64,000 bases of DNA. Source: a virus. Positions 6,116 to 46,338 of the stretch are shown here, one piece after another. Position numbers and translations under genes: made by a program. Below the pieces are notes generated by a model that saw nothing but the letters and a program-made list of their open reading frames with translations, ran no database searches and was not told where the DNA came from. The stretch is taken from IMG/VR virus record IMGVR_UViG_3300035198_000053, positions 1 to 64,000 of that record. One strand, given 5' to 3'. Every line of letters starts with the position of its first letter. The stretch's first letter is position 1.

Positions 6116-7141
6116 ATGAATCGTAATAGACTTATTTTGATTGCTGCATGGCTTCTCCTGTTCGGGACCGTCCTGGTCTACTACCCCTCCCGCGCCGAGG
6201 ACTATGACATCTTCTATCATCTGAGATTCGGAGAGTATTTCGTGACCCACCACACCTTTCAGCTCGACCACTCCATCTTTTCCTGGACGCCCGCAGACTC
6301 GAGCTGGCGCTACGGGATCTGGCTCGGAAGCACAGCCCTTTATCTCGCATACAGGGCGTTCGGCCCGGCGGGTTTCTTCATAATCCAGTGGGGGATATTC
6401 CTGGCGATAGTCCTGCTCTACCTGCGGTTTGTGAGGAAGATCGGGGGAAGGGTCGGGCCGATCCACGTCTTTTCCCTCTTGCTTGCCTTCGTCGCGCTGA
6501 ATCTGACGGCAATATACATCAAGCCGGAGTTGTTCAGCACGCTGTTCTTTGCGGTATCGGCCTTCATCTACATCGCGGGGAAGACGGGACAGAAGAGACT
6601 TCTGTGGCTGCATCCTCCGCTCTTCCTTCTCTGGGTTAATACGCATGGGGGCTATCTGGCGGGACTAACCTTTTTGGGGATCGCGCTTGCCGGTGAGGTG
6701 TTGAACGGGATGTACTTCCAGGATAGGCGAATGGTAGTGCCGCTGGCGACGGTGTTTGTGCTGTCCTGCATTGCGGTGATGTTCAACCCCTACGGTCCGG
6801 CCTACCACGTGGGCATAATCAACACCTTCATCGGGGACGAGACTTACATGAGCTACGCCCGGCGGGTCTACGCATGGGTTGATATGTGGAGATACCTATT
6901 CCCGAAGGACGAGTTCGCCTTTAGGTTCGTGGACACGGCGTGGTGCCTGGTGATCATGATCGGGTCGTTCTCCACATTGGTCGCTTATCGGTTCGTGAAG
7001 ACGAAACGGGCAGACGTCGCCCTGATCCTCGTCAACGCGGCCTTCTTCTGGGAGGGGATGAGCGCGGCGCGGGTGACGATCTTCCTGCCGCTGATCTGGC
7101 TGTTCTCGATGGTGTATCTTGCGCATGAGGAAAAATCATGA
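6116..7141 (+). CDS. multi-pass membrane protein, GT-C-like glycosyltransferase, N-terminal half
   Basis: About 9-10 hydrophobic segments; DYDIFYHLRFGE first-loop motif, KPELFS, LWVNTHGGY, FNPYG. Confidence 0.7.
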   Translation: MNRNRLILIAAWLLLFGTVLVYYPSRAEDYDIFYHLRFGEYFVTHHTFQLDHSIFSWTPADSSWRYGIWLGSTALYLAYRAFGPAGFFIIQWGIFLAIVLLYLRFVRKIGGRVGPIHVFSLLLAFVALNLTAIYIKPELFSTLFFAVSAFIYIAGKTGQKRLLWLHPPLFLLWVNTHGGYLAGLTFLGIALAGEVLNGMYFQDRRMVVPLATVFVLSCIAVMFNPYGPAYHVGIINTFIGDETYMSYARRVYAWVDMWRYLFPKDEFAFRFVDTAWCLVIMIGSFSTLVAYRFVKTKRADVALILVNAAFFWEGMSAARVTIFLPLIWLFSMVYLAHEEKS

Positions 7142-8421
7142 CGTGGAGAATGTTGGATCTTTTTTCAGGCATCGGAGGTTTCAGCCTTGCCGCTCAATGG
7201 TGTTGGGGAGACGACCTTGAGATTCAGGCATTCGTGGAGATTGACAAGTTTTGTCAGAAGGTTCTCAAGAAGCATTGGCCGGAGGTTCCGATAATTGAAG
7301 ACATCACAAAGGTTGAGTGGGTTGTTGCCGACACCGCAGAGTATGGATGCACTGGACATCCCGAACGGAAATCAGGAGGAGAGGAAAAAGAAGGGTGGAT
7401 GTGCGAATCTGGGACAGAAAATCAGCGGATTGCTTCCAACTCCTCACGGATTCAGCCCAGATGGGAAGAGCAACGGACCCACGGGGAACGAATTAGGGTT
7501 TGCCTTAAATCACCGATCAACCTCCTCACCGGCGGATTCCCCTGCCAACCTTTTTCCTGCGCTGGGAAAAGAGCAGGAACAGAAGATGACCGCTTTCTCT
7601 GGCCAGAGATGCTTAGAGCGATTCAGGCAATTAAACCACGGTGGGTCTTGGCAGAGAATGTTTCTGGACTGCTTAGTCAACAAGACGGATTGGTATTCGA
7701 GAGAGTGTGTACTGACCTGGAAGCTGAAGAGTACGAGGTTCAGCCGGTTGTTATTCCAGCTTGCGGTGTCGGGGCGCCGCACAGAAGCGACAGGGTTTGG
7801 ATTGTTGCCCATAGCCTCAGGCAATCAATTCGAGGAAGATCCAATAACTTGGAACGAGAGAAACGACAAGATAAAAATAGATCCCCATTATCACGGAAGT
7901 TCGGGGAAACCGTTAGCGGTGAAGATCGCCATGCTTCACACGCCATCTGGACGGGAACCAGGGATATCTGTAGAGAGGTTTCAGGCGAGGGAAGGCGAAC
8001 CGGCCAAGATAGGCGAGAGGGCATACGACAGGGAAACAGGCAGGCTTGCTCAAGTGGGATTGCATTAACAGATTGCGATGCTTCCGACACCCAGGGCGAA
8101 CAAGCATTCCCCTCGGAGCCCGGAGGACTTCACCCCGAATCTTGCGGCAAGGATAGAGATGTTGCCGACACCGACCGGAAGGGATCACAAGTCGGAGAAA
8201 TGCTCAGAGGAAACCTGGGAGAGGAACGCCAGACCCCTTTCGGAAACTCTTGGCAAGAACACTGGTATGAAGTTGCAACCCGCCTTTGTCGAGTGGATGA
8301 TGGGGTTCCCCGAAGGGTGGACAGGCTTAAATCACTCGGAAACGCCATAGTGCCACAAGTGGCATTTCAGATCATGAAGGCGATAAAGGAAGTGGAAAAT
8401 AATGAGAACTCAAAAGATTAA
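7138..8421 (+). CDS. DNA (cytosine-5) methyltransferase, main (alpha) frame
   Basis: Motif I DLFSGIGG, IV GFPCQPFS, VI ENV, VIII (H)RSDRVW, X LGNAIVP. Confidence 0.92.
   Translation: MTWRMLDLFSGIGGFSLAAQWCWGDDLEIQAFVEIDKFCQKVLKKHWPEVPIIEDITKVEWVVADTAEYGCTGHPERKSGGEEKEGWMCESGTENQRIASNSSRIQPRWEEQRTHGERIRVCLKSPINLLTGGFPCQPFSCAGKRAGTEDDRFLWPEMLRAIQAIKPRWVLAENVSGLLSQQDGLVFERVCTDLEAEEYEVQPVVIPACGVGAPHRSDRVWIVAHSLRQSIRGRSNNLEREKRQDKNRSPLSRKFGETVSGEDRHASHAIWTGTRDICREVSGEGRRTGQDRREGIRQGNRQACSSGIALTDCDASDTQGEQAFPSEPGGLHPESCGKDRDVADTDRKGSQVGEMLRGNLGEERQTPFGNSWQEHWYEVATRLCRVDDGVPRRVDRLKSLGNAIVPQVAFQIMKAIKEVENNENSKD
7295..8350 (+). CDS. overlapping +1-frame polypeptide of the methyltransferase (LPTP repeats and motif IX-like end); one in-frame TAA at 8066, distal ORF 8078-8350
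   Basis: Six L/M-L-P-T-P-like units; KLQPAFVEWMMGFPEGWT. Confidence 0.65.
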
Positions 8422-9112
8422 AGACAAATACATTCTGATCGCCATGGCCCTGATCTTCGTCTTCATCGGCCGAATGACCCTGCTCAACCTTGAGGACCGC
8501 TCCTGGTTCGGGAAGAACCTGATCGAATACGCACCGGTGAAGGAGGTCGAGTTCGTGAAGAAGTACAGACTGCCCGGCCCCATCCTCAACGACTACCTGA
8601 TCGGGGGCTACCTGATCTGGGCACTCTACCCAGACTACAAGGTCTTTATCGACCCGCGCTACGGTCCCTACTGGAAGGAGACGGGACCGGATTATTTCGA
8701 GTTCATGGCGCACCTGAACCCGGAGACATTGAGGAAATTCAACCAGAAGTACCCATTTAGGACGATCATTTTGAGCATGAGGGAGATCACGCTTATAAAC
8801 TTCCTAATCGGTCAGCCGGAGTGGAGGCTGATCTATTTCGACAAGGCGGCGGTCGTGATAGTACACTCCTCCGTCATCCCGACGCTGAGCCGGGAGGCGC
8901 TCTCGACGGACATGAGCCCGCAGAAGTTCGGGGACGTGGTCAACCCCATCGTCCTTGAGAACCTCTTCAACTTCTATCTCATGATCGGGCCGCAGTACGC
9001 CAGGGTGATAGCGGACATCTTCACGCGGAATGTGACCGTGTTCAATCAGACCAAGGGCGTGAAGTTGGCGGAGATGCGGAACAGGATAGCGCAGCGAGAA
9101 GGACAGAAATGA
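8402..9112 (+). CDS. GT-C-like membrane protein, C-terminal half (last TM plus extracytoplasmic domain)
   Basis: PVKEVEFVK...GPILNDYLIGGYLIW..YPDYKVFIDPRY, the usual C-terminal motif of the family begun at 6116. Confidence 0.7.
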   Translation: MRTQKIKDKYILIAMALIFVFIGRMTLLNLEDRSWFGKNLIEYAPVKEVEFVKKYRLPGPILNDYLIGGYLIWALYPDYKVFIDPRYGPYWKETGPDYFEFMAHLNPETLRKFNQKYPFRTIILSMREITLINFLIGQPEWRLIYFDKAAVVIVHSSVIPTLSREALSTDMSPQKFGDVVNPIVLENLFNFYLMIGPQYARVIADIFTRNVTVFNQTKGVKLAEMRNRIAQREGQK

Positions 9113-9531
9113 GAGCTTCAGATAATTTGTGGCTTGTTGGGAATAGAGGAAGTTTTATAGTTCACGTTCCTGAATGTGAATTTGCAGATAAAATCCATCC
9201 AGATAATTTTGAGGAATTTGAGTCTTTAGAAAATGCATTTTCATACGGTTATAGAGAATGTATTTACTGCATGGGGGGCGGTAGAGAAAAGGAGATTCAA
9301 TGGATATTGAAAAAGCAATTATCTGATTCACTTAAATCTTCACAAAATGATGCTGGATGCTGTATTTGCGGCTATAAGAAAGCAGTTCAAAAAGCCCATC
9401 TGCATCCAAGAAGTAAAGGAGGCATAGCAATAATTCCTCTTTGTCCTAATTGTCATTGGAATTATGAGCATAATTTACTTTCAAATAAACAAAAAACGAG
9501 GCTTATAGATTATTTGAGGGGGCAGAAATGA
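9109..9531 (+). CDS. HNH endonuclease with N-terminal Ada-like Zn-binding domain
   Basis: GNRGSFIVHVPEC...GYRECIYC; CCICG...AHLHPRSKGG...LCPNCH; AT-rich. Confidence 0.8.
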   Translation: MRASDNLWLVGNRGSFIVHVPECEFADKIHPDNFEEFESLENAFSYGYRECIYCMGGGREKEIQWILKKQLSDSLKSSQNDAGCCICGYKKAVQKAHLHPRSKGGIAIIPLCPNCHWNYEHNLLSNKQKTRLIDYLRGQK

Positions 9532-10667
9532 GGGTCGAATTCTTCCGACACAGCATCGACGAAGAAGACATCGCAAGGCTGGCCGAGACGGCAAGGTCCG
9601 TCTTCCTGACCACGGGGCCGCAGGTCGAAAAGTTCGAGAATGCATTGGGAGAGTATCTCGGCGGTCATGCCGTAGCGGTGACGAGTTGCACGGCGGCTAT
9701 GCACCTCTGTCTCCTGGCATGGGAGATAGGCCCGGACTGCGAGGTCATCACTACACCCCTGAGCTTCTGCGCCACGGCCAACGTCACCCTGCACACCTGG
9801 GCGACTCCCGTGTTTGTGGACGTGGAAGAGGAGACCGGGAATATCGACGCCGATCTGATAGAGGGGAAGATCACGGGCAGGACCAGGGCGATCATGCCCG
9901 TGCACCTTTACGGGCAGATGTGCGACATGCGGAGGATAAGACAGATAGCCAAAAAACACAAATTGATAATCATCGAGGATGCGGCCCACTGTGTCGAGGG
10001 CGTGCGGGAAGGGATACTTCCGGGGCAATTCGGGAATGCAGCCTGCTTCAGCTTTTACGCGACCAAGAATATCACTTCGGGCGAGGGCGGGGCGATAGTC
10101 ACAGACAATCGGATGAAAGCAGATCTGTTAAAGCAACTCCGGCTCCACGGAATAGACGAATCGGCGGCGGATCGCTACACGGGGGAATACAGACATTACG
10201 ACATGGGTATGCTCGGCTGGAAGTATAACATGGACGATCTTCAGGCCTCGCTGCTTATCGGCCAGTTGGAAAGAATAGACGAACTATGGAATAGAAGGGA
10301 GATTATTTGTCGGGATTATGAAATGGCGTTCGCTAAAGTAGAGGGGATAAGACTCATCAAGCCAACGCACGATATTTATCCGTCTAATCGTCACGCTCGG
10401 CACCTGTTCACCATTCAGGTGGCGCCGGAGCACAGGGACGCGATTCTCCATGAACTGCAAAAGAAGGATATCGGCGTGGCGGTGCACTTCAGGCCGATTC
10501 ATCTCATGTCCTACTATCGGGAGCGGTTCGGGTATAAGGAAGGAGACTTTCCCGTGGCGGAGCGGATCGGGGCAAGCACGATCTCCCTACCCCTTTATCC
10601 CAGACTGACGGATGAGGAAGTGGAGTACGTGATCAAGGCGGTGAAGGAGGTCCTAGCCTCGGCATGA
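9528..10667 (+). CDS. DegT/DnrJ/EryC1/StrS nucleotide-sugar aminotransferase
   Basis: PVHLYG, IIEDAAH, FSFYATKNIT.GEGG (PLP lysine), SLPLYP. Confidence 0.95.
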   Translation: MRVEFFRHSIDEEDIARLAETARSVFLTTGPQVEKFENALGEYLGGHAVAVTSCTAAMHLCLLAWEIGPDCEVITTPLSFCATANVTLHTWATPVFVDVEEETGNIDADLIEGKITGRTRAIMPVHLYGQMCDMRRIRQIAKKHKLIIIEDAAHCVEGVREGILPGQFGNAACFSFYATKNITSGEGGAIVTDNRMKADLLKQLRLHGIDESAADRYTGEYRHYDMGMLGWKYNMDDLQASLLIGQLERIDELWNRREIICRDYEMAFAKVEGIRLIKPTHDIYPSNRHARHLFTIQVAPEHRDAILHELQKKDIGVAVHFRPIHLMSYYRERFGYKEGDFPVAERIGASTISLPLYPRLTDEEVEYVIKAVKEVLASA

Positions 10668-10671
10668 AAAA

Positions 10672-10755: not shown

Positions 10756-11649
10756 ATGAATAGACTTGAGGATGCGGGTTATTTCCCCAAAGTGATTCTC
10801 ATCGACACCTGTTCCTTCTGCGATCTCCGTTGCTCAATGTGCGCCCACAAGGACATGAAGCGGAAGAAGGGCGTCATGACCTGGAGGCTCTTCACCAAGA
10901 TCATAAATGAGATAGCGGAGAGAGACAGGAACGCGCGCGTGTGGCTGGTCTTCTTCGGAGAGGCGCTTATTTTAAAGAACAGCAGGCCGTCGATATTTGA
11001 CATGATCGCGTACTCCAAAAAGAAGGGGTTGACAGATGTCGTGCTAAATACGAACGGAAAGCTGCTCGATATAGATGCCGCAGATAAGCTGATCGAATCC
11101 GGCCTGGATGCGATCTATGTGGGGATAGATGCTTTTACCCCCGAGACGTATGACAGGCTGAGGATTGGCGGGGATTATTGGAGCGTTGTTCGAAACGTGG
11201 AATCGTTCATGGCGTACAAAGAGGGATTGGAGATCAGGCACCCGAAAATATTCGTTCAGTTTGTGGAAATGGAAGAGAACTTTGAAGAGCGGGATCAGTT
11301 TGTCCGCTATTGGACGCACAGGGGCGCGGAGGTGAAGATCCGCCCCAAGGTGAGCTGGGCCGGGGCTGTGGACGCTCCTAACCTGACGGCGGGGAACATG
11401 GAGCGGCATCCCTGCTATTGGGCTATGCAGACGATGTCGATCACGAACGAGGGGAAGGTGGTCACGTGCGCCGTGGACGTAGAGGCCAAGTTCGTGGCCG
11501 GGGACGTGAACAATAATTCCCTGTCCGAGATCTGGAACGGGACGCTGAAGGATCTGAGGGCGATGCACCTGGCGGGAGATTATTCCTGGCTGCCCCATCA
11601 TTGTTTCTCGTGCCGGGACTGGCAGGCGGCGAGGGCGGAGTTCTATTGA
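10756..11649 (+). CDS. radical SAM/SPASM-twitch enzyme
   Basis: CDLRCSMC; C-terminal PCYW...VTC..D...G.V....L.EIWNG...CFSC. Confidence 0.92.
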   Translation: MNRLEDAGYFPKVILIDTCSFCDLRCSMCAHKDMKRKKGVMTWRLFTKIINEIAERDRNARVWLVFFGEALILKNSRPSIFDMIAYSKKKGLTDVVLNTNGKLLDIDAADKLIESGLDAIYVGIDAFTPETYDRLRIGGDYWSVVRNVESFMAYKEGLEIRHPKIFVQFVEMEENFEERDQFVRYWTHRGAEVKIRPKVSWAGAVDAPNLTAGNMERHPCYWAMQTMSITNEGKVVTCAVDVEAKFVAGDVNNNSLSEIWNGTLKDLRAMHLAGDYSWLPHHCFSCRDWQAARAEFY

Positions 11650-13499: not shown

Positions 13500-13644
13500 G
13501 GAAAGAGTAATTGACCTGCGGTGGGAGCCGGAATTTGTTTATCAATACGTGGCGTTGCGAAATGAATATATTCATTCTCAAAGACTTTTTGAAAGGAACG
13601 AATTTGAAAAATACAGCATCAGATACTTCAAAAGGATCGGTTGA
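13492..13644 (+). pseudogene. internally deleted GNAT acetyltransferase remnant (50 aa)
   Basis: GGAGG RBS plus TTG; ...QYVALRNEY joined to IHSQRLFERNEFEK, resembling GNAT motif B. Confidence 0.4.
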
Positions 13645-20760: not shown

Positions 20761-20761
20761 T

Positions 20762-39687: not shown

Positions 39688-39772
39688 GGGTTTTCTTCCA
39701 CCCCACTCCTTTTTCCATAGCACCTTGGCCGTAGATAAGGTTAAACGGCCAAATATTCACGAATGGGATGCA

Positions 39773-40894
39773 ATGGACATTAACGATTTCGTCCTCACCG
39801 ACGACAAAGCCATGGTCCTGGTCGAGTACCTTTTGCCCGGGTATAACAACCAGAAGTCCTATGTTGGAGTGGACCGCGCGCTCAAAGGGCAGGCGATCGG
39901 GAAATGGAAACTCGTTCCAAGGCCGGACAAAAGGGACAAATACGAGACGCGCATGATGACCGCCAGCGGGGTGCCAGACGCGCTGACCCGCGACGACATG
40001 CTAGGGAAGCAGACCTACGAGACGAAGAGCCTAAAAAAAAAGCGGATAGCATGGGTGGAGGACTCATGGGTTATCGGAGGGGCGGAGATCTCGGGCCAAA
40101 CCATGACTAGAATCGGTGAGGAGTGCGGCTTCGAGATAGAGCGCGTCACCGGCAAGACCGATACTATGTTAATAGGGGAGATACTATCGGGGAGCGACCT
40201 GATAGTGCTCAACAACGTATGGGGTTTCTCGCAGGAGCAGATGGCGAAGATATTGACCGCCATCGAAAGGGTGCCCTATGTCAAGTACGAGCACGACCAC
40301 AGGGAGATCGAGCACAGGCGGGACATTTCGGAAAAGCTATTCAGGGGGTCGGTCCTCAACTTTTTTTTATCTCCCATTCACATGTCGAATCACATGGAGA
40401 CGTTTCAAATCCAGGGTATTTGTCTTCCTCTTGCGATCGACGTTGAGATTTTTCGTCCGGTGGCAGGTGTTGAAAGAAAGATGGGCACAGCTCTAGTCTG
40501 CAATGTAAGAGGATGGAAGACCTGGAAAACGCTAAAGGAGTTCATCGACAGCCATCCGGAGATTCATTTTGATATCCTCTCCAAGGGAGAACTCATCACC
40601 GGACCGAATGTAACCAGCATTCCGATGGTCCCATATGAGGAGATGCCGAAGCTCTATTCCGCGCACGAATGGCTTGTCCACATGCTCGACGGATGGGGTG
40701 CGGGGGAGCGCGTGGTGTTCGAGGCGGCCCTCTGCGGCTGCCGCGTGATAGCCAACGAACGCGTTGGTCATATGTCCTGGGGCAAAGATTTGACCGACGT
40801 TAAAGGATTGCGGGAATGGCTGAGGGCTGCCCCTTATCTTTTCTGGCGCGAGGTCGACCGGCTGACAAAGCAGACAGAGGCGAAGGCGGCATGA
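39773..40894 (+). CDS. GT4-like glycosyltransferase
   Basis: GGAE, HD motif, EMPKLY, ERVVFEAALCGC. Confidence 0.8.
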   Translation: MDINDFVLTDDKAMVLVEYLLPGYNNQKSYVGVDRALKGQAIGKWKLVPRPDKRDKYETRMMTASGVPDALTRDDMLGKQTYETKSLKKKRIAWVEDSWVIGGAEISGQTMTRIGEECGFEIERVTGKTDTMLIGEILSGSDLIVLNNVWGFSQEQMAKILTAIERVPYVKYEHDHREIEHRRDISEKLFRGSVLNFFLSPIHMSNHMETFQIQGICLPLAIDVEIFRPVAGVERKMGTALVCNVRGWKTWKTLKEFIDSHPEIHFDILSKGELITGPNVTSIPMVPYEEMPKLYSAHEWLVHMLDGWGAGERVVFEAALCGCRVIANERVGHMSWGKDLTDVKGLREWLRAAPYLFWREVDRLTKQTEAKAA

Positions 40895-41514
40895 TGGAAT
40901 CCAGGCTCGACTACTGGGAGAACCGATACAGGAAGCAGGGATTAAAGACTGTGGGGTGTTGCTCCTTTTCTGAATCCCAGTTTCAAGCTAAGACGGGTGC
41001 CGTCATGGATATGATCCGCCCCACGCTTGAGCCGATATTCCGGGGGAAGACAGTTTTGGATTTCGGGTGCGGATGGGGCAGACTAAGCAAGATGCTTTTT
41101 GCCTTCTGCCACTCCGTCTACGGGATAGATATCTCCCCGTGGGCTATCAGGCAGGCCAAAAACCACTCACCCGGCTGTGACTTCCGGGACTATGACGGGG
41201 AACATATACCCTTTGGAGACGGTTGCTTTGAGGGTTGCCTATCATGGACGGTTTTGCAGCACGTCCCCCCGGAACAGATCGGGAAGACATGCGGGGAGAT
41301 TTCGCGCGTCCTCGGCAAAGACGCCCATCTTGTTATTTATGAGAATGTATCGACTTGGTGCGAGGATATGACACATGTCTGGTTCAGAAGGCCGAAGGAC
41401 TACATGATGCTGTTCGAACAATTCCGGGTTGAACGGGAAACCATTGTCAAGGACTTCGACGGAACCGGGGAAAACCATGTTTTGATGGTCCTCAGAAGGG
41501 GGGATGGGAAATGA
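40891..41514 (+). CDS. class I SAM-dependent methyltransferase
   Basis: YWENRY, VLDFGCGWGR, GIDIS, TVLQHV. Confidence 0.9.
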   Translation: MMESRLDYWENRYRKQGLKTVGCCSFSESQFQAKTGAVMDMIRPTLEPIFRGKTVLDFGCGWGRLSKMLFAFCHSVYGIDISPWAIRQAKNHSPGCDFRDYDGEHIPFGDGCFEGCLSWTVLQHVPPEQIGKTCGEISRVLGKDAHLVIYENVSTWCEDMTHVWFRRPKDYMMLFEQFRVERETIVKDFDGTGENHVLMVLRRGDGK

Positions 41515-42263
41515 AAAGGTGGATTGCGGTAGTTTTAATGATTCTGGTTTGGACTTCATTTTCTTACGCGGTATCCCAAGACGGTTTCGTGCTCAACATA
41601 GTTCATGATGCCCAATTCTCGAAGGAGATCTCCGGACAGGTATTCTTACCCTTCCAGACCGAGTACAAGATAAGGCTCAAGAACGCGCACAATTTGAGAG
41701 CCGTTGCCTCGGTCACCGTGGACGGCAGGCCGGTAAGCAACCTCGGAGATATCGTGATCCCCGCCAATGGAGAGTTAAGCATTGAACGATTCCTTAACGA
41801 GTCCTTGTCGGAAGGCAGGCGATTTAAGTTCGTACCATTGAGTGATCCACAGGTAGATGATCCCTATAGTAATGATAACGGCATCATCAAAGTGAAGTTC
41901 AGACTTGAGAAGAAGATTCCACCTCCTATCTATTGGATTGTGCCAGATAATCCAAAATTTAAAATTAATGAGAATTTCCCCTCTACATTGCCTCTGGCAT
42001 CTTTAACTACCGGCACCCCTAACTCTTCTTTGACTACCGGGACCGTTGATTCTTTTGCAACCGGAGAATTCAATAGCGGAATTACAAATACGAACTGCTC
42101 TGCATGCGGAGCCACTATCGGCGGGAGTATTTCAAATCAAGCGTTCCATGAAGTGAGTCTCGACATTGACGACCAGATTACGATTTTGGAGCTGAGGATA
42201 TTGGGGATAAGCCATACCAGTTTTATAAGGCGGTTTGATGGTACGGGAATAATGCAATGGTAA
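41511..42263 (+). CDS. signal-peptide-bearing phage hypothetical protein
   Basis: Signal peptide ending SYA; EYKIRLKN...IERFL...RFKF. Confidence 0.65.
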   Translation: MKRWIAVVLMILVWTSFSYAVSQDGFVLNIVHDAQFSKEISGQVFLPFQTEYKIRLKNAHNLRAVASVTVDGRPVSNLGDIVIPANGELSIERFLNESLSEGRRFKFVPLSDPQVDDPYSNDNGIIKVKFRLEKKIPPPIYWIVPDNPKFKINENFPSTLPLASLTTGTPNSSLTTGTVDSFATGEFNSGITNTNCSACGATIGGSISNQAFHEVSLDIDDQITILELRILGISHTSFIRRFDGTGIMQW

Positions 42264-42934
42264 AGAATATCGTTGCCATTGGCGGGGCCGTGATTAAAAC
42301 GGCCTGGAATGAAATCAGAAATCTCGCCAGTAATGGTGCTTTTGACGTGCTGATCCACAACGGGGCCTCCCTGTTCCATGACTTCCAAAGGGCCACGGAG
42401 GAGTTGCCGGGCCACTCATATTCGCTGGCCGACCTTTTGGAGGATTATCGAAAGGACGAAGCAGCCAGCCTGTTGGTGTGGGAGTTTCTAAGGGAGAACG
42501 CAAGAGCTCCAAAGGACAGTCTAACCCGGATCTGCGAAGACCAGGGGATAAACGTTCTCTTGGCGGTCGCACTTGGGACGGACTTCTGGCATCTGTTCGA
42601 CCAGGATTGGGGGCTGATAGCCCGGCGATGTCGAAACGATTTTCTAGGCCTGATCGAACATATGGGGACCCCATTCAAGTTTTTTTGCCTGGGCTCAGCG
42701 GTGATCCATCCGGAGCTGTTCGCCAAGGCGCTTGCGGTCGCAAAATCGGAACAGTTCACGACCGTGGTGGTGGATTTCAGGGAGATGTACCGCCCGAGAT
42801 CGCGGGTTGCAGTCTATGGGCAGTACCTTCTCATGGAACACAAGGAATTCCTCAACTCCTGGATCGAATCGCGCAAGAGGGAAAGGAATGAAGCGGACAA
42901 AGCAGAGACGCAAGCCCATAGACCGACGCTTTGA
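42257..42934 (+). CDS. deoxyhypusine-synthase-like (GSU2086-type) protein
   Basis: NGASLFHDFQ, LGTDFWH, GSAVIHPELFAKAL, DF...YRP. Confidence 0.6.
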   Translation: MVKNIVAIGGAVIKTAWNEIRNLASNGAFDVLIHNGASLFHDFQRATEELPGHSYSLADLLEDYRKDEAASLLVWEFLRENARAPKDSLTRICEDQGINVLLAVALGTDFWHLFDQDWGLIARRCRNDFLGLIEHMGTPFKFFCLGSAVIHPELFAKALAVAKSEQFTTVVVDFREMYRPRSRVAVYGQYLLMEHKEFLNSWIESRKRERNEADKAETQAHRPTL

Positions 42935-43037
42935 CAAGCGCGCCATGGAGCAGGCGTGGCTGAAATCCTTCGAGCAGAACTACAAGAAGAAAGAGCCGTT
43001 CGTGCCGAGATTCCAGGAGGGGACGGGGGATGGATGA
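42888..43037 (+). CDS. small basic hypothetical protein
   Basis: RBS plus ATG; coupled to the next gene. Confidence 0.4.
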   Translation: MKRTKQRRKPIDRRFDKRAMEQAWLKSFEQNYKKKEPFVPRFQEGTGDG

Positions 43038-43711
43038 ACTACCACATCGTCAAGCTGTATTTTAAGCGCGAGTCGGGCGTGACCGACGAGTGGATAGCAA
43101 AACGCATAGACTTCTTTACGCGATACACCTTGAGGAGTCTGCAAAGGCAGACCTTCACCGACTTCTCGCTGTGGATATGGTGCCAACCCGGGATGGAGCA
43201 GGCCATGAAACCGCTAGTCCGCTTTTTGCCGAAAGATGGGGTGATGACGTTCGGGCAGCATTTCACGGAAAAGGCGCCGATGCCGGTCTTCCACAGGCTC
43301 AATGAATCCGATCATGTCTATGTCACGCGCATAGACTCTGACGATCTTTACAGGGCCGATGCCATGCAGATCATCTCCGACCAGCAGCCCATTGACCGTT
43401 CAAGGATAGAGTGCGCGATGTTCAGGTGGGGGTATTTGTACGAGCTAAAGACGGAGCGCGTCGGAACGTATTTCAAACACAGCACGCCCTTTCACTGCGT
43501 CATGTGGCCGGCAGACATCTTCTGCAATAGGGAAAAGCACGACGAGGCGTTCTGCGGGGACCACGCGAGGGTGAAGGACGCCTACCCGACGAGGTTCCTG
43601 CCAGATTGGAAATTCTGCGTCCTCGTGCACGGGGATAACTTCAGCTCGACGTTCGATTCTCTGGTACAGAAGCGGTACAGGGACGACTTCGACCTGATGG
43701 AGTTTATGTGA
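43034..43711 (+). CDS. GT-A fold (putative rhamnosyltransferase-like) glycosyltransferase
   Basis: FTRYTLRSLQRQTFTDF, TRIDSDD, VHGDN. Confidence 0.75.
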   Translation: MNYHIVKLYFKRESGVTDEWIAKRIDFFTRYTLRSLQRQTFTDFSLWIWCQPGMEQAMKPLVRFLPKDGVMTFGQHFTEKAPMPVFHRLNESDHVYVTRIDSDDLYRADAMQIISDQQPIDRSRIECAMFRWGYLYELKTERVGTYFKHSTPFHCVMWPADIFCNREKHDEAFCGDHARVKDAYPTRFLPDWKFCVLVHGDNFSSTFDSLVQKRYRDDFDLMEFM

Positions 43712-44268
43712 TGGACAAGCCGGTGATATTCGATGTGGATGACTTTTGCGACATGTGGGAATGTCTGACGGACATTGAGATATTGAAGCACACATATCCC
43801 AACTTCAAAGCAACATTGTTCACGATCCCATTCAGGACGAGCCCGGCGATGCTGCTCAGGGTCAAGAAGCTGGGATACGTCGAACTTGCCGTCCACGGAT
43901 TTCTGCACAGTCCGAACCTCATGGAGATGCTCGGTCTGGAGAAGTGGCAGATCGTCGAACTCTTCAAGAAGGTGGACTTCAGGTTCTACTGCCATGGATT
44001 CCGACCTCCGGGCTGGCACATGAACCAAACCGTTGTAGATGCCTGCAATGAGGCCGGTCTGTGGGTGGCCATGCATAGGAACGATAGGAAACTCGCCGCG
44101 AAGTGCATCCACGGGTACTATATCGCGGAGGACAAGTACCCATGCTGGCACGGGCATACGCACAATGTCTGCAACAACTGGATACGGAAGGCCATCCCCG
44201 ATCTCGTCAAGAGGTGGCCGCAGGACCAGGAGTTCATGTTCGTAAGCGAGGCGGTGCAGAAGACATGA
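43708..44268 (+). CDS. polysaccharide-deacetylase-like protein
   Basis: FDVDDF, TLFTIP, LAVHGFLH, GFRPPGW, HGH. Confidence 0.75.
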   Translation: MMDKPVIFDVDDFCDMWECLTDIEILKHTYPNFKATLFTIPFRTSPAMLLRVKKLGYVELAVHGFLHSPNLMEMLGLEKWQIVELFKKVDFRFYCHGFRPPGWHMNQTVVDACNEAGLWVAMHRNDRKLAAKCIHGYYIAEDKYPCWHGHTHNVCNNWIRKAIPDLVKRWPQDQEFMFVSEAVQKT

Positions 44269-44479: not shown

Positions 44480-44676
44480 GCAAGGTCTATATGGGTGAAC
44501 ACAGTTACGGGAAGATCAAGATCCTGACTCACAACGGTGGCCGCAATGTGTATGTGGGGGAATATACGTCCATAGGTGATGGCGTTGTCGTGGCGGCAGG
44601 CGCGATCCTCACAAAGAATCCCGAACCATATGAGATATGGGGCGGCAATCCGGCCATACGTATAGGCGTAAGATGA
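44476..44676 (+). pseudogene. internally deleted CatB-type (left-handed beta-helix) O-acetyltransferase
   Basis: MGEHSYG...GEYTSIG joined to DGVVVAAGAILTK...PYEIWGGNPA; only 66 aa. Confidence 0.65.
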
Positions 44677-45404
44677 TAGATGTGATCCTGACCACCTATA
44701 ACCGGCTTCCCTTGCTGAAGCGGACTGTGGACTCCCTTGTCAAGAATACCACGGATTTCCGCCTGTTCATCAACGACGATTGCTCCGAGGATGACACAAG
44801 GGATTATCTGTTGAAATTGGAGGCGAGAGAAATCGCCAAAATAATCTTGAACGGGCAGAGGAAGGGCGTCGTCCCGGGCTTCAATGCGCTGTGGGAAATG
44901 GTAGAGCATAGCGACAGCGAGTATGTCTGCTATCTCCAGGACGACATGCTAGTCAACTCCTACGGATGGTTGGACGTGCTGACGGGGATCCACAAGGAGA
45001 TATCCGGGACGCTGTCGGTGGGATTTGCGTCCGGGTACGACGCGAGAGAGCATCCGGAAATCACGAGGATACAGTGGGCAGGGAGGGAGGTCCTGTTCAA
45101 AAACAGCACGTCTGCCACAAATCTGATCGCGACGAAACATTTTTGGAGGTCTCTCGGGCTTCCGATCCCCCTTCTGAATCCCAATGGGAGACTGAGAGGG
45201 TTCCCGAACGACGGCCACGGGTCGAACATAGACGTTTACCTGACCGGGTGCATCAGCATGTCGAGGGTCAGCCGGAGGGATTCCTCCCCCACGTCCTCCT
45301 ACAAGCAGGGGAAGGTTGTCATGGTGATACCGGGGCTTTTGGAGCATCTCGGGGCGGCAAGGCAGTTCTCCTCGTGGAGGCAGAACAGGGCGAGCGGGTT
45401 CTGA
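44673..45404 (+). CDS. GT2 glycosyltransferase
   Basis: TTYNR, INDDCSED, YLQDD. Confidence 0.88.
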   Translation: MIDVILTTYNRLPLLKRTVDSLVKNTTDFRLFINDDCSEDDTRDYLLKLEAREIAKIILNGQRKGVVPGFNALWEMVEHSDSEYVCYLQDDMLVNSYGWLDVLTGIHKEISGTLSVGFASGYDAREHPEITRIQWAGREVLFKNSTSATNLIATKHFWRSLGLPIPLLNPNGRLRGFPNDGHGSNIDVYLTGCISMSRVSRRDSSPTSSYKQGKVVMVIPGLLEHLGAARQFSSWRQNRASGF

Positions 45405-45405
45405 C

Positions 45406-46338
45406 ATGGCTAAAGGAAAAGCGATTTCTTTCTTCGGGAACGGCCTCGGAAACATGGTGATGCTCATGCCAGCGCTGGCAGCCATGAGCACTCTCACCGA
45501 AACCGGGAAAATCGACATCGTTCTCGATGATCGATGGCGGGATATGCGCAGACCCGCCGTAGAGGAGATACTTTTCAACTGGAAGGTGATCGACAGAGTG
45601 ATAAGCTGGCCCAGGGAGACCTTCGACCCTCGGGAATATGACCTCTGGTACTACAGCGGCCATGGGAACGGAAGCTGCCAGATAGTGGACCTGTTCATCC
45701 AGAAGCTCAGGTACGTCGTGGCGAAGCCGAGCTGGCGAGGATCTAAGATGCACGAGAGCAACCACTACATGGAGGTTGCCTACGCCCAGGGGTACGAAGG
45801 ACCGGTCCCAGAGGTCAATTTCCCCCTAGCGGATGGTCCTATCCTCGACCTACCTCATCCCATTATCGGGCTTTGCAACGGCTGGTTCCGGGGGACTAAA
45901 TATTGGGAGAAAAAGGGGTGGCCGCATTTCGAGCGTCTTAGCAGCGTCCTGAAGATGTATTTCCCCGGGGGGGCCTTGGTAGGAGTAGGACTAGAGGGCG
46001 AACTGCCCACGGGCACGCGCCTGGACGCAGACTATGGGGGTAAATTGACGATATTGCAGACGGCGAAGGTTATTTCACAGATTGACCTGCTCATAACGAC
46101 GGACACCGGCAACATGCACATAGCCGACACGCTGGACGTGCCTCTGATCGCGTTGTTCGGGCCGACGCTGACGACCAAGAACAGGCCAATAGGAAAGAGA
46201 TCCCACGTTCTGACGGCGAGCATGGAGTGCGTGCCCTGCCAGGACACGCGGGCGTTTTCTTCGTGCGAGAAGGCCATCTGCATGGAGGAGATCAAGTCGG
46301 GGGACGTGATGGCCGTCGCCAGGGAGATGCTGAGATGA
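45406..46338 (+). CDS. GT9 (heptosyltransferase-like) glycosyltransferase
   Basis: GLGNMV, KGWPHF, TTDTGNMHIA, ALFGPT, CVPCQ...CM. Confidence 0.9.
   Translation: MAKGKAISFFGNGLGNMVMLMPALAAMSTLTETGKIDIVLDDRWRDMRRPAVEEILFNWKVIDRVISWPRETFDPREYDLWYYSGHGNGSCQIVDLFIQKLRYVVAKPSWRGSKMHESNHYMEVAYAQGYEGPVPEVNFPLADGPILDLPHPIIGLCNGWFRGTKYWEKKGWPHFERLSSVLKMYFPGGALVGVGLEGELPTGTRLDADYGGKLTILQTAKVISQIDLLITTDTGNMHIADTLDVPLIALFGPTLTTKNRPIGKRSHVLTASMECVPCQDTRAFSSCEKAICMEEIKSGDVMAVAREMLR

What the first reader, a model, noticed from the sequence alone, without database searches (positions are those of the whole stretch)
6116..46338. Candidate phage-encoded glycoprotein system: two glycan cassettes plus exported fibre-like substrates inside the head operon
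Seen: about 30 kb of non-core genes split the terL-portal-protease-capsid-connector run at three points. These are cassette I (sugar synthesis, DPM1-like GT2, two GT-C-like membrane proteins), a block of five signal-peptide proteins, and cassette II (four soluble GTs plus tailoring enzymes). Known: GT2 plus GT-C pairs transfer lipid-linked sugars outside the membrane (GtrABC seroconversion, PMT/STT3); some actinophages glycosylate virions with a few soluble GTs; Mimivirus makes viosamine for its fibrils. Inference: this phage may make a rare sugar and attach it to its own exported proteins or the host surface, while cassette II decorates the capsid. I do not recognise a described phage combining all three modules.
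Basis: partly seen in the sequence, partly recalled or inferred. Interest (0 to 1): 0.9.

Follow-up and report, generated by a model that had tools for sequence, protein, structure and literature searches.

The report
Phage head region with three glycan/export islands
An uncultured sediment phage carries three separate add-ons in its head-gene region: a sugar-modification operon captured whole from bacteria, a set of exported fibre-like proteins, and a sugar-transferase island that its whole family keeps beside the capsid gene. They look like independent modules, not one glycoprotein machine.

Summary
About 33 kb of accessory genes split terL, portal, protease, capsid and connector at three points.

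**Block A (5.7-21.3 kb)** is a bacterial operon captured whole. It encodes DegT, two radical SAM/SPASM enzymes, an AsnB-like enzyme, WbqC, a 4,6-dehydratase, a GT2 and a GT-C. The order and 55-74% identity match 34 metagenome loci.
- The 541-aa protein has a GT-C fold.
- The 341-aa protein could not be classified.
- Both membrane genes are split in the phage, one by an inserted DNA methylase gene.

**Block B** has four Sec-type signal-peptide proteins, not five. The fifth gene is an HNH endonuclease.

**Block C** is family-wide. A GT gene follows the capsid gene in 52 of 54 relatives, within a 2.9-9.7 kb variable island.

The blocks do not travel together:
- A and B are absent from 16 whole related records.
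- A's bacterial homologues have no B-like neighbours.
- Other phages carrying B-like beta-helix proteins lack A.

Most likely reading: A modifies the host envelope in the Gtr/Arn manner, C glycosylates the virion, and B is a hot spot for exported or fibre proteins of unknown role. Coupling of A to B stays possible, at about 15%.

This scan has found predicted virion-glycosylation cassettes before, on other DNA. No glycan has been measured.

The parts
4407..5723 (+). Large terminase (core gene, left border of block A)
   Evidence: Pfam Terminase_6C E 9e-14. 59-71% identical homologues in 8 related loci.
6116..7141 (+). 341-aa polytopic membrane protein. It is the N-terminal half of a 694-aa bacterial protein, with a conserved E/D-D-Y-D...HLR-F/Y-GE motif after TM1. 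GT-C status is unresolved.
   Evidence: About 7 hydrophobic segments. Fused to the 236-aa part in L093 and L098. AF2 model poor, pLDDT 46.7. Atlas gives only weak STT3/PMT_2 leads.
7138..8421 (+). C5 cytosine DNA methyltransferase gene, inserted between the two halves of the split membrane-protein gene
   Evidence: Pfam DNA_methylase E 6e-42. Absent from the bacterial versions of the operon. GC3 0.49 against 0.66-0.82 for its neighbours.
8402..9112 (+). 236-aa N-terminally anchored protein. It is the C-terminal extracytoplasmic half of the same 694-aa bacterial protein.
   Evidence: One N-terminal TM. Homologous to the C-terminal part of L093/L098 and to the start of L080.
9109..9531 (+). Small possible HNH endonuclease, inserted (selfish element)
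   Evidence: Pfam HNH_2 E 0.0098, below the family cut-off. GC 0.35. Absent from the bacterial operons.
9528..10667 (+). DegT/PseC/ArnB-type sugar aminotransferase
   Evidence: Pfam DegT_DnrJ_EryC1 E 5e-117. NCBIfam PseC and ArnB models score below their cut-offs. 58-66% identical in bacterial loci.
10756..11649 (+). Radical SAM/SPASM enzyme 1
   Evidence: Pfam Radical_SAM plus SPASM. 55-62% identical in bacterial loci.
11742..13499 (+). AsnB-like glutamine amidotransferase
   Evidence: Pfam Asn_synthase E 2e-94 plus GATase_7. NCBIfam asn_synth_AEB 468 bits.
13511..14584 (+). Radical SAM/SPASM enzyme 2
   Evidence: Pfam Radical_SAM plus SPASM. 67-74% identical in bacterial loci.
14814..15473 (+). 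WbqC-family protein (sugar tailoring, function untested)
   Evidence: Pfam WbqC E 7e-73.
15428..16642 (+). NDP-hexose 4,6-dehydratase (RmlB-like)
   Evidence: Pfam GDP_Man_Dehyd and Epimerase. NCBIfam dTDP-glucose 4,6-dehydratase 320 bits, cut-off 365.
16486..17388 (+). GT2 glycosyltransferase, candidate polyprenyl-phosphate sugar transferase (ArnC/DPM1-like). The true start is probably near residue 50 of the ORF.
   Evidence: Pfam Glycos_transf_2 E 1.5e-13. Best solved relatives are ArnC and DPMS, E 2e-5 to 9e-4. No TM segment.
17796..19421 (+). 541-aa GT-C-fold glycosyltransferase (membrane part of an ~800-aa bacterial protein)
   Evidence: AF2 pTM 0.83. VIA Z 13.2-8.1 to AglB, AftD, STT3B, ArnT, DPY19, ALG12, AftA, ALG9, PglB, Pmt4, Pmt1-Pmt2 and EmbA-EmbB. 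Foldseek top hits are the same families. 15 homologues besides the phage's own protein, mostly 787-861 aa.
19595..19996 (+). 133-aa anchored protein. It is the shortened C-terminal extracytoplasmic domain of the same GT-C, here a separate ORF in another frame.
   Evidence: tblastn of the bacterial homologues: residues ~625-729 match 19628-19936 in frame 2. It is one ORF in bacteria.
20630..20784 (+). Two strong intrinsic-terminator-like hairpins, closing the terL/cassette I unit before the portal operon
   Evidence: 13-bp and 9-bp stems, each followed by a T-run. They are the strongest sites in 50 kb scanned.
21272..24544 (+). Portal protein with a LAGLIDADG intein (nt 22322-23341) and a C-terminal Mu-F domain
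   Evidence: Pfam Phage_portal, LAGLIDADG_3 and Phage_Mu_F. Intein borders read from the sequence.
24631..30798 (+). 2055-aa signal-peptide protein. It is a low-charge Gly/Asn/Ser/Thr repeat fibre with 99 N-x-S/T, an N-terminal ~18-aa-repeat module (aa 45-112) and a C-terminal globular end.
   Evidence: Signal peptide and composition. 99 sequons against 55.9 +/- 6.2 in shuffles. One distant relative, P0287. Module shared with junction proteins of relatives.
31075..31449 (+). Signal peptide plus a single fn3/Ig-like domain (likely start 31099)
   Evidence: N-terminus MKKLLGIIFILSLLFVGQVYA/AS. Weak PHROG match to the Ig-like part of a tail protein. Shine-Dalgarno sequence.
31458..32186 (+). 242-aa signal-peptide protein, no known family
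   Evidence: GC3 0.41, unlike the core genes.
32193..34700 (+). 835-aa signal-peptide protein. It has an N-terminal ~540-aa beta-helix-like domain of a large unnamed family and a C-terminal Ig/fn3-like domain.
   Evidence: 2646 relatives. The C-terminal repeat occurs in giant Ig-domain surface proteins. The family occurs in 21 other viral loci, at least 10 with signal peptides.
34791..35840 (+). HNH (endonuclease VII-like) homing endonuclease. This is not a signal-peptide protein.
   Evidence: PHROG endonuclease VII E 1e-14. 38-41% identical copies at the same junction in L005-L011.
35827..38214 (+). Head maturation protease with scaffold-like extension
   Evidence: PHROG head maturation protease. 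Homologues in 65 loci.
38293..39687 (+). HK97-type major capsid protein
   Evidence: Pfam Phage_capsid E 1e-37. 153 relatives.
39725..40894 (+). GT-B-like glycosyltransferase, the family-wide gene that follows the capsid gene
   Evidence: Pfam Glyco_trans_1_2 E 1e-5. Homologue after the capsid gene in 52 of 54 relatives.
40816..41514 (+). SAM methyltransferase (DVU_1556-like)
   Evidence: Pfam Methyltransf_25 and Methyltransf_11. NCBIfam. Present in 15 related loci.
41511..42263 (+). 250-aa signal-peptide protein inside cassette II, found only in this phage
42257..42934 (+). GSU2086-domain protein. In relatives it sits between portal and protease.
   Evidence: NCBIfam GSU2086_dom E 4e-15. Positions in L001-L003, L016 and L017.
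42956..43711 (+). Rhamno_transf-like glycosyltransferase
   Evidence: Pfam PF11316 E 1e-7.
43708..44268 (+). 186-aa protein of unknown function, shared with 5 relatives' islands
44637..45404 (+). GT2 glycosyltransferase (soluble)
   Evidence: Pfam Glycos_transf_2 E 2e-13. Present in 11 related loci.
45406..46338 (+). GT9 (heptosyltransferase-like) glycosyltransferase, closing the island
   Evidence: Pfam Glyco_transf_9 E 2e-17. PDB WaaF and WaaC. Present in 33 related loci.

Best explanation
The 40-kb stretch is the packaging and head region of a lambda-like-tailed, HK97-capsid phage from sediment. Its host is probably in or near the Desulfobacterota. Three junctions have each collected a different accessory module, and the modules work separately.

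**A. Between terL and portal: a captured envelope-glycan operon.**
- The phage picked up, in one piece, a bacterial operon for modifying a cell-envelope glycan.
- Inferred pathway: an RmlB-like dehydratase and a DegT aminotransferase make an NDP-4-amino-4,6-dideoxyhexose from a host NDP-hexose.
- WbqC, an AsnB-like amidotransferase and two radical SAM/SPASM enzymes then tailor the sugar.
- A GT2 loads it onto polyprenyl phosphate. After flipping, probably by a host flippase, a GT-C enzyme transfers it to an acceptor outside the cytoplasmic membrane.
- By analogy with phage gtrABC and with Arn, the likeliest acceptor is a host surface polysaccharide. The likely benefit is to block superinfection or the re-binding of progeny.

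**B. Between portal and protease: a variable slot for large proteins.**
- This family-wide slot collects large fibre-, Ig- or beta-helix-type proteins.
- Here four of them carry Sec signal peptides and are exported.
- Their role is unknown. Candidates are envelope-bound fibres or glycan-degrading enzymes acting at release.

**C. Between capsid and connector: a glycosyltransferase island.**
- The whole phage family keeps an island of soluble glycosyltransferases with variable content.
- It most likely glycosylates the capsid or other virion proteins in the cytoplasm, as shown for some mycobacteriophages.

**Shown versus inferred.**
- Shown: gene content, the GT-C fold, the bacterial origin and synteny of A, the conservation of C, and the independent distribution of the three blocks.
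- Inferred: the sugar, all acceptors, and export itself.
For: **A has a bacterial origin**
- 34 metagenome loci were found with relatives of the 541-aa protein.
- About a dozen of them keep most or all of the same gene order (anchored 236-aa protein, DegT, radical SAM 1, AsnB, radical SAM 2, WbqC, dehydratase, GT2, GT-C) at 55-74% identity. Some of the 34 loci lie on contigs up to 201-234 kb, including one of these syntenic loci (L080, 201 kb).
- The neighbours there are an ABC-2 permease, an ABC ATPase with SLH domains, a GT4, Bac_transf, LPG_synthase_TM and a secreted SLH/Ig protein. This is a cell-envelope polysaccharide setting.

**GT-C fold**
- The AF2 model has pTM 0.83.
- The twelve best of 48,161 chains are all GT-C enzymes, Z 13.2-8.1. 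Unrelated short-helix rows score Z 6.6 or lower.
- Foldseek agrees.
- All invariant residues of the family are kept in the phage copy.

**GT2**
- Its best solved relatives are ArnC and DPMS.

**Known logic**
- Three-component periplasmic glycosylation (polyprenyl-P GT, flippase, GT-C) drives phage seroconversion (PMC11127046, read).
- The phage's own Mtd-type fibre has a weak, sub-threshold pectate-lyase-like match. That would fit a glycan receptor.

**A is a separate transcription unit**
- Two strong terminators lie at 20630-20784.

**C is conserved**
- The post-capsid GT is present in 52 of 54 relatives.
- GT9 is in 33 loci, and the island measures 2.9-9.7 kb.
- In relatives the island holds other sugar genes: PIG-L, a hexapeptide acetyltransferase, an epimerase, DegT and WbqC.
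- Virion glycosylation by phage GTs is known (Freeman 2023, as cited in PMC11256854).

**The blocks are independent**

**B is a hot spot**
- The portal-to-protease gap is 7 nt to 6.8 kb in 53 relatives.
- L006 and L041/L042 also carry signal-peptide proteins there.

**The contig is real**
Against: - No glycan, acceptor or export has been measured.
- No flippase (GtrA) is found in the record.
- The GT2 lacks the TM helices of GtrB and ArnC.
- Both GT-C-type genes are split in the phage, and two selfish genes sit inside the operon. The pathway may therefore be impaired.
- No integrase was found, although the record is only 61% complete. Classical seroconversion cassettes belong to temperate phages and lie near attP.
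- Block B is rich in Asn, Ser and Thr, and lies in the same phage as an extracytoplasmic GT-C. That is exactly what the single-system reading predicts.
- The target of island C is inferred from position only. GT9 enzymes normally act on the LPS core.
Confidence: 0.55

Rival explanations
1. **Single glycoprotein system.** The Sec-exported, Asn/Ser/Thr-rich proteins of block B are the acceptors of the cassette I GT-C. Together they give a phage-specified glycoprotein coat or glycosylated fibres outside the membrane.
For: - A GT-C enzyme and its donor pathway sit in the same phage as four exported proteins.
- The 2055-aa protein has 99 N-x-S/T against 55.9 +/- 6.2 expected.
- GT-C enzymes such as STT3, AglB, PglB, PMT and DPY19 do glycosylate proteins, and they are among the best fold matches.
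- One bacterial version of the operon (L087) encloses a secreted SLH/Ig protein.
Against: - There is no co-occurrence. The GT-C and the two large exported proteins are absent from 16 related records, apart from one marginal partial match for the 2055-aa protein.
- No B-like gene lies beside 34 bacterial copies of A.
- No A gene lies beside 21 viral beta-helix loci, and the GT-C family was not found elsewhere in IMG/VR.
- There are zero D/E-x-N-x-S/T sequons.
- The GT-C family profile shows no sequence similarity to any solved chain, OSTs included.
- A and B lie in different transcription units.
- Two of the exported proteins have a GC3 (0.41-0.42) unlike A (0.66-0.82). This points to a separate origin.
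Confidence: 0.15
2. **Cassette I is decaying cargo.** It was captured by accident and no longer makes or transfers a sugar.
For: - Both GT-C-type genes are broken into two ORFs. About 60 residues with two TM helices are lost from one, and a methylase gene is inserted in the other.
- An HNH-like gene is inserted.
- A GNAT gene present in L080 is missing.
- There is no flippase.
- 1.3 kb with only small, unassigned ORFs follows it.
Against: - Apart from the two gene fissions, every gene kept from the bacterial operon has an intact reading frame over 11 kb.
- All family-invariant residues are kept in both membrane proteins.
- The splits fall at domain borders. Each downstream half has its own start, TM anchor and overlap or ribosome-binding site.
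- Composition matches the phage core: tetranucleotide r 0.80.
- Pieces of cassette I with few differences occur in a second, independent sample.
Confidence: 0.15
3. **Block B proteins are virion fibres (head or neck fibres).** Their N-terminal hydrophobic segments are not cleaved export signals, or the fibres join the particle outside the cytoplasm.
For: - The ~18-aa-repeat module right after the hydrophobic segment of the 2055-aa protein also occurs in junction proteins of L001, L004, L016 and L017. Those proteins have no such segment and sit at the same place after the portal.
- The same beta-helix domain is fused into 1.5-2.7k-aa proteins without a signal peptide in other phages.
- The genes are tightly packed with head genes and have good ribosome-binding sites.
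Against: - Four consecutive proteins have canonical n-h-c regions and small residues at -1 and -3.
- The junction is empty in about half of the relatives, so no essential virion part lies there.
- There is no match to any GenBank phage protein.
Confidence: 0.2
4. **Island C acts on the host, not the virion.** It might alter the LPS core or another lipid-linked glycan from the cytoplasmic side.
For: - The GT9's nearest relatives are the LPS heptosyltransferases WaaF, WaaC and WaaQ.
- The GT2 resembles EPS and teichuronic acid enzymes.
- There is no match to the TibC-type protein heptosyltransferase model.
Against: - The island keeps a fixed position between capsid and connector in 52 of 54 relatives, and it is translationally packed into the head operon.
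- All scores are far below the family cut-offs.
- Virion glycosylation by soluble phage GTs is documented.
Confidence: 0.2

Closest known systems
Three-component periplasmic glycosylation systems: phage gtrABC of Shigella and Salmonella phages, ArnC/ArnT, CsbB/GtcA/YfhO, and the Citrobacter pentofuranose system (Mann & Whitfield 2016; Kelly et al. 2024, PMC11127046)
   Same: - A GT2 next to a GT-C-fold enzyme.
- A lipid-linked donor is implied.
- It is carried by a phage.
- The expected result is a changed cell surface.
   Different: - No flippase gene.
- The GT2 has no TM helices.
- It brings a seven-enzyme pathway for its own rare amino sugar, including two radical SAM enzymes.
- A second large membrane protein is present.
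- It lies between terL and portal, not near an attachment site.
- The GT-C belongs to an unnamed family with no Pfam or NCBIfam match.
- Both membrane genes are split.
Mycobacteriophage virion glycosylation (Che8, Rita and others; Freeman et al. 2023, Cell Host Microbe, as cited in PMC11256854)
   Same: - Soluble phage-encoded GTs.
- The capsid is the likely target.
- Glycan content varies between relatives.
   Different: - The hosts are not actinobacteria.
- The island sits directly after the capsid gene. In the Che8-like phage Maravista the GTs lie near the 3' end of the genome.
- It is larger, with 4 GTs plus tailoring genes, and up to 9.7 kb in relatives.
- No glycan has been measured here.
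E. coli O121 / Shigella dysenteriae 7 O-antigen genes (source of the name WbqC) and other NDP-4-amino-4,6-dideoxyhexose pathways. From my own knowledge; no paper on it was found in the held library.
   Same: 4,6-dehydratase, DegT aminotransferase, WbqC and an AsnB-like amidotransferase occur together.
   Different: - Two radical SAM/SPASM enzymes are present.
- Delivery is through GT2 and GT-C, not into a repeat unit by cytoplasmic GTs.
Protein-glycosylating GT-C enzymes (STT3/AglB/PglB, PMT, DPY19)
   Same: Fold-level similarity, Z 13.2-8.8.
   Different: - No sequence-level relation.
- No large C-terminal OST domain and no MIR domain.
- No bacterial D/E-x-N-x-S/T sequon in the candidate substrate.
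- The polysaccharide- and lipid-modifying GT-Cs AftD and ArnT score about as well.
Haemophilus HMW1 adhesin with the HMW1C N-glycosyltransferase, and TibA/TibC (from my own knowledge)
   Same: A very large secreted repeat protein rich in N-x-S/T or Ser, glycosylated by a soluble GT before export. Island C could act on the 2055-aa protein in this way.
   Different: - No GT41 or BAHT match.
- Island C is conserved in relatives that lack the 2055-aa protein.

Membership tests
GT-C fold glycosyltransferases (541-aa protein) | Polytopic membrane fold shared by STT3, ArnT, PMT, Emb/Aft and ALG enzymes | tested here: met
   Model pTM 0.83. The top 12 of 48,161 chains are all GT-C, Z 13.2-8.1, with 306-347 residues aligned. 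Foldseek gives the same families at probability ~1.
GT-C fold glycosyltransferases (541-aa protein) | Conserved acidic residues in the first extracytoplasmic loop | tested here: inconclusive
   E120, E128 and D178 are invariant in the 16-member family. The loop 119-160 is poorly modelled, so their position in the fold is not fixed.
GT-C fold glycosyltransferases (341-aa protein) | GT-C fold | tested here: inconclusive
   AF2 pLDDT 46.7, pTM 0.37. hhalign to the 541-aa family gives probability 1.4%. No Pfam, NCBIfam or PDB match. Only weak Atlas leads of 0.90-0.91 to STT3_N and PMT_2. The architecture (membrane domain plus extracytoplasmic domain, acidic motif after TM1) is compatible.
Three-component (Gtr/Arn-type) extracytoplasmic glycosylation system | GT2 that charges polyprenyl phosphate | tested here: inconclusive
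   GT2 domain E 1.5e-13. The nearest solved relatives are ArnC and DPMS, but only at E 2e-5 to 9e-4. No TM helix. Always adjacent to the GT-C in bacteria.
Three-component (Gtr/Arn-type) extracytoplasmic glycosylation system | Dedicated flippase (GtrA, ArnE/F or similar) | tested here: not met
   No PF04138 match in the 76-kb record, while the control genomes match. No small 4-TM protein in the cassette. An LPG_synthase_TM protein follows the operon in L080 but is not in the phage.
Three-component (Gtr/Arn-type) extracytoplasmic glycosylation system | GT-C transferase | tested here: met
Three-component (Gtr/Arn-type) extracytoplasmic glycosylation system | Acceptor is a surface glycan (O-antigen, lipid A, teichoic acid) | not testable with these tools
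   Only context is available: the bacterial copies lie among polysaccharide export and SLH genes.
Phage serotype-conversion cassette | Carried by a temperate phage, next to integrase/attP | tested here: not met
   It lies between terL and portal. No tyrosine integrase is found in the record. The record is only 61% complete, so lifestyle stays open.
N-oligosaccharyltransferase (PglB/AglB/STT3) | Sequence membership (STT3 family, WWDYG-type motif in a C-terminal domain) | tested here: not met
   No Pfam or NCBIfam STT3 match. The family profile finds no solved OST at E up to 10. The C-terminal domain is a 133-aa fragment. A WW-x-x-G is present at residue 506, but inside the membrane part.
N-oligosaccharyltransferase (PglB/AglB/STT3) | Bacterial acceptor sequon D/E-x-N-x-S/T in the candidate substrates | tested here: not met
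   0 such sequons among the 99 N-x-S/T of the 2055-aa protein.
Phage virion glycosylation (Che8 type) | Soluble phage-encoded glycosyltransferases expressed with structural genes | tested here: met
   Four GT domains without TM segments lie between capsid and connector. The position is conserved in 52 of 54 relatives.
Phage virion glycosylation (Che8 type) | Glycan covalently bound to capsid or tail proteins | not testable with these tools
   This needs virions.
Sec-exported proteins (block B) | N-terminal signal peptide with n-, h- and c-regions and a -3/-1 rule site | tested here: met
   By hydropathy scan and inspection only, for the proteins starting at 24631, 31099, 32193 and, with a less typical Leu at -3, 31458. 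Not for the one at 34791. No SignalP was available.

The most novel reading that the evidence does not exclude
The phage uses its captured GT2/GT-C pathway to put a rare, radical-SAM-tailored amino sugar on its own Sec-exported proteins. Chief among them is a 2055-aa fibre with 99 N-x-S/T. The result would be a phage-specified glycoprotein layer on the infected cell, or fibres that are glycosylated outside the cytoplasm and join or shield the progeny. That would be the first extracytoplasmic protein-glycosylation system described for a tailed phage.
Probability: 0.15. Interest if true: 0.85.

Novelty: new variant of a known kind. Interest (0 to 1): 0.55.

Why it matters
**If block A works**, it is much more than a three-gene gtr cassette. 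It would mean a phage carrying a complete pathway for a rare lipid-linked amino sugar, including two radical SAM enzymes of unknown chemistry. It would also tag a conserved, uncharacterised bacterial operon and an unnamed GT-C family for study.

**Island C** extends predicted virion glycosylation from actinophages to a large family of sediment and wetland phages, with a fixed and easily recognised position after the capsid gene.

**Signal-peptide fibre and beta-helix proteins** recur in phage structural regions: three lineages of this family and at least 10 other viral contigs. I cannot explain this observation. It bears on how phages handle the envelope at release.

**The negative result also matters.** Three glycan-related blocks lying next to each other in one genome do not make a system.

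Tried and rejected
Gene neighbourhoods of protein hits came from the search for related loci instead.
- The genome search cannot reach metagenome loci. I could not see whether the 341-aa part is fused upstream of L080.

**Searches that found little or nothing**
- Single-protein scans of IMG/VR with the capsid and the 541-aa protein found nothing. Alignment-based scans were needed.
- Genome contigs gave one 3.5-kb contig in a Paceibacterota bin. That is too short to name a host.
- The 341- and 541-aa proteins, and the 541-aa family profile, found no credible relative among solved chains by sequence.
- Neither the first 320 nor the last 775 residues of the 2055-aa protein matched any GenBank phage. 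Only one distant relative exists in 5.8 billion proteins.
- No solved relative was found for the post-capsid GT or the GSU2086-like protein.
- Rfam and tRNA scans of the window were empty.
- The long gap 19996-21272 has no similarity to the bacterial loci.
- A paper search for 'WbqC' gave nothing useful.

**Tests that failed or were negative**
- The structure of the 341-aa protein failed (pLDDT 46.7), so I ran no fold search on it.
- hhalign of the two membrane families was negative.
- The sigma-70 promoter scan was not informative.

**Ideas rejected**
- Assembly chimera.
- PglB-type N-glycosylation of the fibre: no D/E-x-N-x-S/T sequon.
- A TibC/BAHT identity for the GT9.
- A fifth signal-peptide protein. 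That gene is an HNH endonuclease.

**Caveat.** GC3 values for three genes whose starts I shifted out of frame are not valid and are not used.

Full report
**1. What the window is**

The window is the first 64 kb of a single 76,429-bp virus record, which CheckV rates 61% complete. All genes run on the + strand.
- Core genes: large terminase 4407-5723, portal 21272-24544, protease/scaffold 35827-38214 and HK97-type capsid 38293-39687.
- The portal carries a LAGLIDADG intein at nt 22322-23341 and a Mu-F domain.
- Connector and tail genes follow. They include an Mtd_N fibre with a weak pectate-lyase-like match and a GpJ-like tip protein.
- The record is not an assembly artefact. Contigs of 38 and 65 kb from two runs of the probable source sample span 5001-25000 with no difference, at 72x and 39x. 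A run from another sample and study holds pieces of both cassette I and the portal at 3-5x, with few differences.

**2. The observation**

Accessory DNA sits at three junctions: 15.5 kb between terL and portal, 11.3 kb between portal and protease, and 6.5 kb between capsid and connector.
- Four proteins in the middle block (2055, 124, 242 and 835 aa) have canonical Sec-type N-termini. The fifth gene is an HNH endonuclease.
- Only one of the two membrane proteins could be shown to be GT-C.

**3. Block A is a captured bacterial operon**

*Origin and synteny*
- The 541-aa membrane protein has 15 homologues besides its own record, mostly 787-861 aa. One is named from a Nitrospirae bin.
- A scan of metagenome contigs with their alignment returned 34 loci.
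- About a dozen of them hold most or all of the same genes in the same order: anchored 236-aa protein, DegT, radical SAM 1, AsnB-like, radical SAM 2, WbqC, 4,6-dehydratase, GT2, GT-C. Identity is 55-74%.
- Some of the 34 loci lie on contigs of 201-234 kb, so the family is chromosomal. One of them, L080 (201 kb), carries the full syntenic operon.
- Neighbours there are an ABC-2 permease, an ABC ATPase fused to SLH domains, a GT4, methyltransferases, an LPG_synthase_TM protein, a Bac_transf priming enzyme and, in L087, a secreted Ig/SLH protein. This is a cell-envelope polysaccharide setting.

*How the phage copy differs*
- In bacteria the GT-C is one ORF. In the phage it is split into 17796-19421 and, in another frame, 19595-19996. 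About 60 residues are lost between them.
- The 341-aa and 236-aa proteins are one 694-aa protein in L093 and L098. In the phage a C5 DNA methylase gene lies between them.
- A small AT-rich gene with a weak HNH match is inserted before DegT.
- A GNAT gene seen in L080 is missing.

*Signs the operon is still maintained*
- Apart from the two gene fissions, every retained gene has an intact reading frame, and all family-invariant residues are kept.
- Composition matches the phage core.
- Two strong terminator hairpins at 20630-20784 close the unit before the portal operon.

*The enzymes*
- The AF2 model of the 541-aa protein has pTM 0.83.
- It matches GT-C enzymes only at the top of an all-against-all structural search: AglB Z 13.2, AftD 12.7, STT3B 12.6, ArnT 11.9, then DPY19, ALG12, AftA, ALG9, PglB, Pmt4, Pmt1-Pmt2 and EmbA-EmbB. 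Foldseek agrees.
- The GT2's nearest solved relatives are ArnC and DPMS.
- NCBIfam places the dehydratase near RmlB and the aminotransferase near PseC and ArnB, both below the equivalog cut-offs.

*Best reading*
- Block A is a Gtr/Arn-like pathway that builds its own tailored 4-amino-4,6-dideoxyhexose on a polyprenyl carrier. It then transfers the sugar outside the membrane.
- No flippase is present.
- The 341-aa protein stays unclassified.

**4. Block C is a family trait**

- The capsid has 153 relatives, two of them from Desulfobacterales bins. There are 76 IMG/VR loci.
- Of 54 loci with more than 1.5 kb after the capsid gene, 52 carry a homologue of the GT-B-like gene 39725-40894 just downstream.
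- GT9 occurs in 33 loci, the methyltransferase in 15 and the GT2 in 11.
- The distance from the capsid to the first connector homologue ranges from 2.9 to 9.7 kb.
- The 100%-complete relative L004 has a different filling: GT2_4, PIG-L, a hexapeptide acetyltransferase, an epimerase, GT2 and GT9. Other relatives hold DegT, WbqC or dehydratase genes in this island.
- A fixed place in the head operon with variable sugar chemistry fits glycosylation of a virion protein. This is known for Che8-type mycobacteriophages (Freeman 2023, as cited in PMC11256854).
- The target is inferred from position only. The GT9 scores nearest to LPS heptosyltransferases and not to TibC-type enzymes.

**5. Block B is a hot spot**

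*The junction varies*
- In 53 relatives the portal-to-protease gap runs from 7 nt to 6.8 kb. About half have no insert.
- L006 carries three signal-peptide proteins followed by a homologous HNH gene. L041/L042 carry a signal-peptide fibre-like protein. L004, L005, L045 and L066 carry large proteins without signal peptides.

*The 2055-aa protein*
- It is a near-orphan, with one distant relative and no GenBank phage match.
- Only 4% of its residues are charged.
- It has 99 N-x-S/T against 55.9 +/- 6.2 in shuffles, but none in the bacterial D/E-x-N-x-S/T form.
- Residues 45-112, right after the signal peptide, form an ~18-aa-repeat module (T-R-I-Y-L-x-D-G-T-x-x-G-Y...). L006's signal-peptide protein shares it, and so do signal-less junction proteins of L001, L004, L016 and L017.

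*The 835-aa protein*
- Its N-terminal ~540 residues belong to an unnamed family with 2646 members. Most are ~500-aa proteins that align from their own N-termini.
- Its C-terminal domain is an Ig/fn3-like repeat found in giant surface proteins.
- The family occurs in 21 other IMG/VR loci. At least ten have signal peptides. Three are fused inside 1.5-2.7k-aa proteins without one.

I cannot say what these exported proteins do. Possibilities are envelope-bound fibres, glycan-degrading enzymes acting at release, or virion fibres with an unusual assembly route.

**6. Do the blocks form one system?**

- The GT-C (541 aa), the 835-aa protein and, apart from one marginal partial match, the 2055-aa protein are absent from the whole records of 16 relatives.
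- The other cassette I and block B genes have no homologues within 10 kb of any relative's capsid gene.
- The terL-to-portal gap is 87-1857 nt in eight relatives.
- The GT-C family was not found elsewhere in IMG/VR.
- No block-B-like gene lies near the 34 bacterial copies of A.
- No A gene lies near the 21 viral beta-helix loci.
- A and B are separated by terminators.
- The 242- and 835-aa genes have GC3 of 0.41-0.42, against 0.66-0.82 for A.

So the blocks are independent acquisitions. C is ancestral to the family, while A and B are particular to this phage. This lowers the single-system reading but does not exclude coupling within this phage. An extracytoplasmic GT-C and exported Asn/Ser/Thr-rich proteins in one genome remain suggestive. 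I put that at about 0.15.

**7. Comparison and novelty**

- Block A works like a three-component seroconversion system (PMC11127046). It fails the flippase and temperate-phage features, brings a long rare-sugar pathway and uses an unnamed GT-C family.
- Block C works like actinophage virion glycosylation, in a new phage family and at a fixed position.
- This scan has reported predicted virion-glycosylation cassettes in other phages before.
- Overall this is a new variant of known kinds. It leaves two open items: the exported fibre and beta-helix proteins, and the chemistry of the bacterial operon.

Everything about sugars, acceptors and export is inference. No experiment exists.

Noticed in passing
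window 22322-23341 (inside portal 21272-24544): A 340-aa LAGLIDADG intein interrupts the portal protein. It runs from Cys after ...NQNRA to ...HGN before Thr. The portal also has a C-terminal Mu-F domain. L004's portal (717 aa) has no intein.
   Followed up: partly
L080 1-12835, L079, L082-L087, L102, L103 (metagenome loci): The bacterial parent of cassette I is a conserved operon for which I found no description: DegT, radical SAM, AsnB, GNAT in L080 and L087, radical SAM, WbqC, RmlB-like, GT2, and an ~800-970-aa GT-C of an unnamed family. It may be worth study in its own right.
   Followed up: partly
L080 16088-17479: An ABC-transporter ATPase carries C-terminal S-layer-homology (SLH) domains. 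This is an odd fusion for a cytoplasmic subunit. It lies next to an ABC-2 permease downstream of the operon.
   Followed up: no
window 24763-24966 (aa 45-112 of the 2055-aa protein); L004 4773-6773; L006 3651-5279; L016 351-968; L001; L017: An ~18-aa repeat (T-R-I-Y-L-A-D-G-T-P-W-G-Y-x-E-Y-D...) is shared by otherwise unrelated proteins encoded right after the portal gene, both with and without signal peptides. In shape it recalls cell-wall- or choline-binding repeats, but no Pfam family matched.
   Followed up: partly
L115-L121, L126, L128, L129 (IMG/VR loci): At least ten other viral contigs encode stand-alone members of the 835-aa protein's beta-helix family with clear signal peptides. In L122, L123 and L125 the same domain is embedded in 1.5-2.7k-aa proteins without one.
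   Followed up: partly
window 20786-21079 and 20933-21067: A 97-aa ORF ending in a SEC-C-type motif (PCPCG...KKCC) precedes the portal. The independent sample X3 carries a variant with a 135-nt in-frame deletion inside it.
   Followed up: no
window 52214-53890: The Mtd_N fibre, which also has a weak sub-threshold pectate-lyase-like match, has GC3 0.50 against 0.60-0.82 for other core genes. This suggests a recently swapped receptor-binding protein. No reverse transcriptase was looked for.
   Followed up: no
window 410-1177: A DUF5131 protein has an intein-splicing-domain match at its N-terminus (residues 26-58).
   Followed up: no
window 40816-41514 and 42257-42934: The methyltransferase is nearest to the DVU_1556 family and the 225-aa protein to the GSU2086 family. 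Both are named after Desulfovibrio and Geobacter genes. This fits the Desulfobacterales labels on two capsid relatives as a host hint.
   Followed up: partly
window 1361-2272: A further 303-aa protein with a clear signal peptide (…GVNGAYA/EG) is encoded upstream of the terminase. It has no family match.
   Followed up: no
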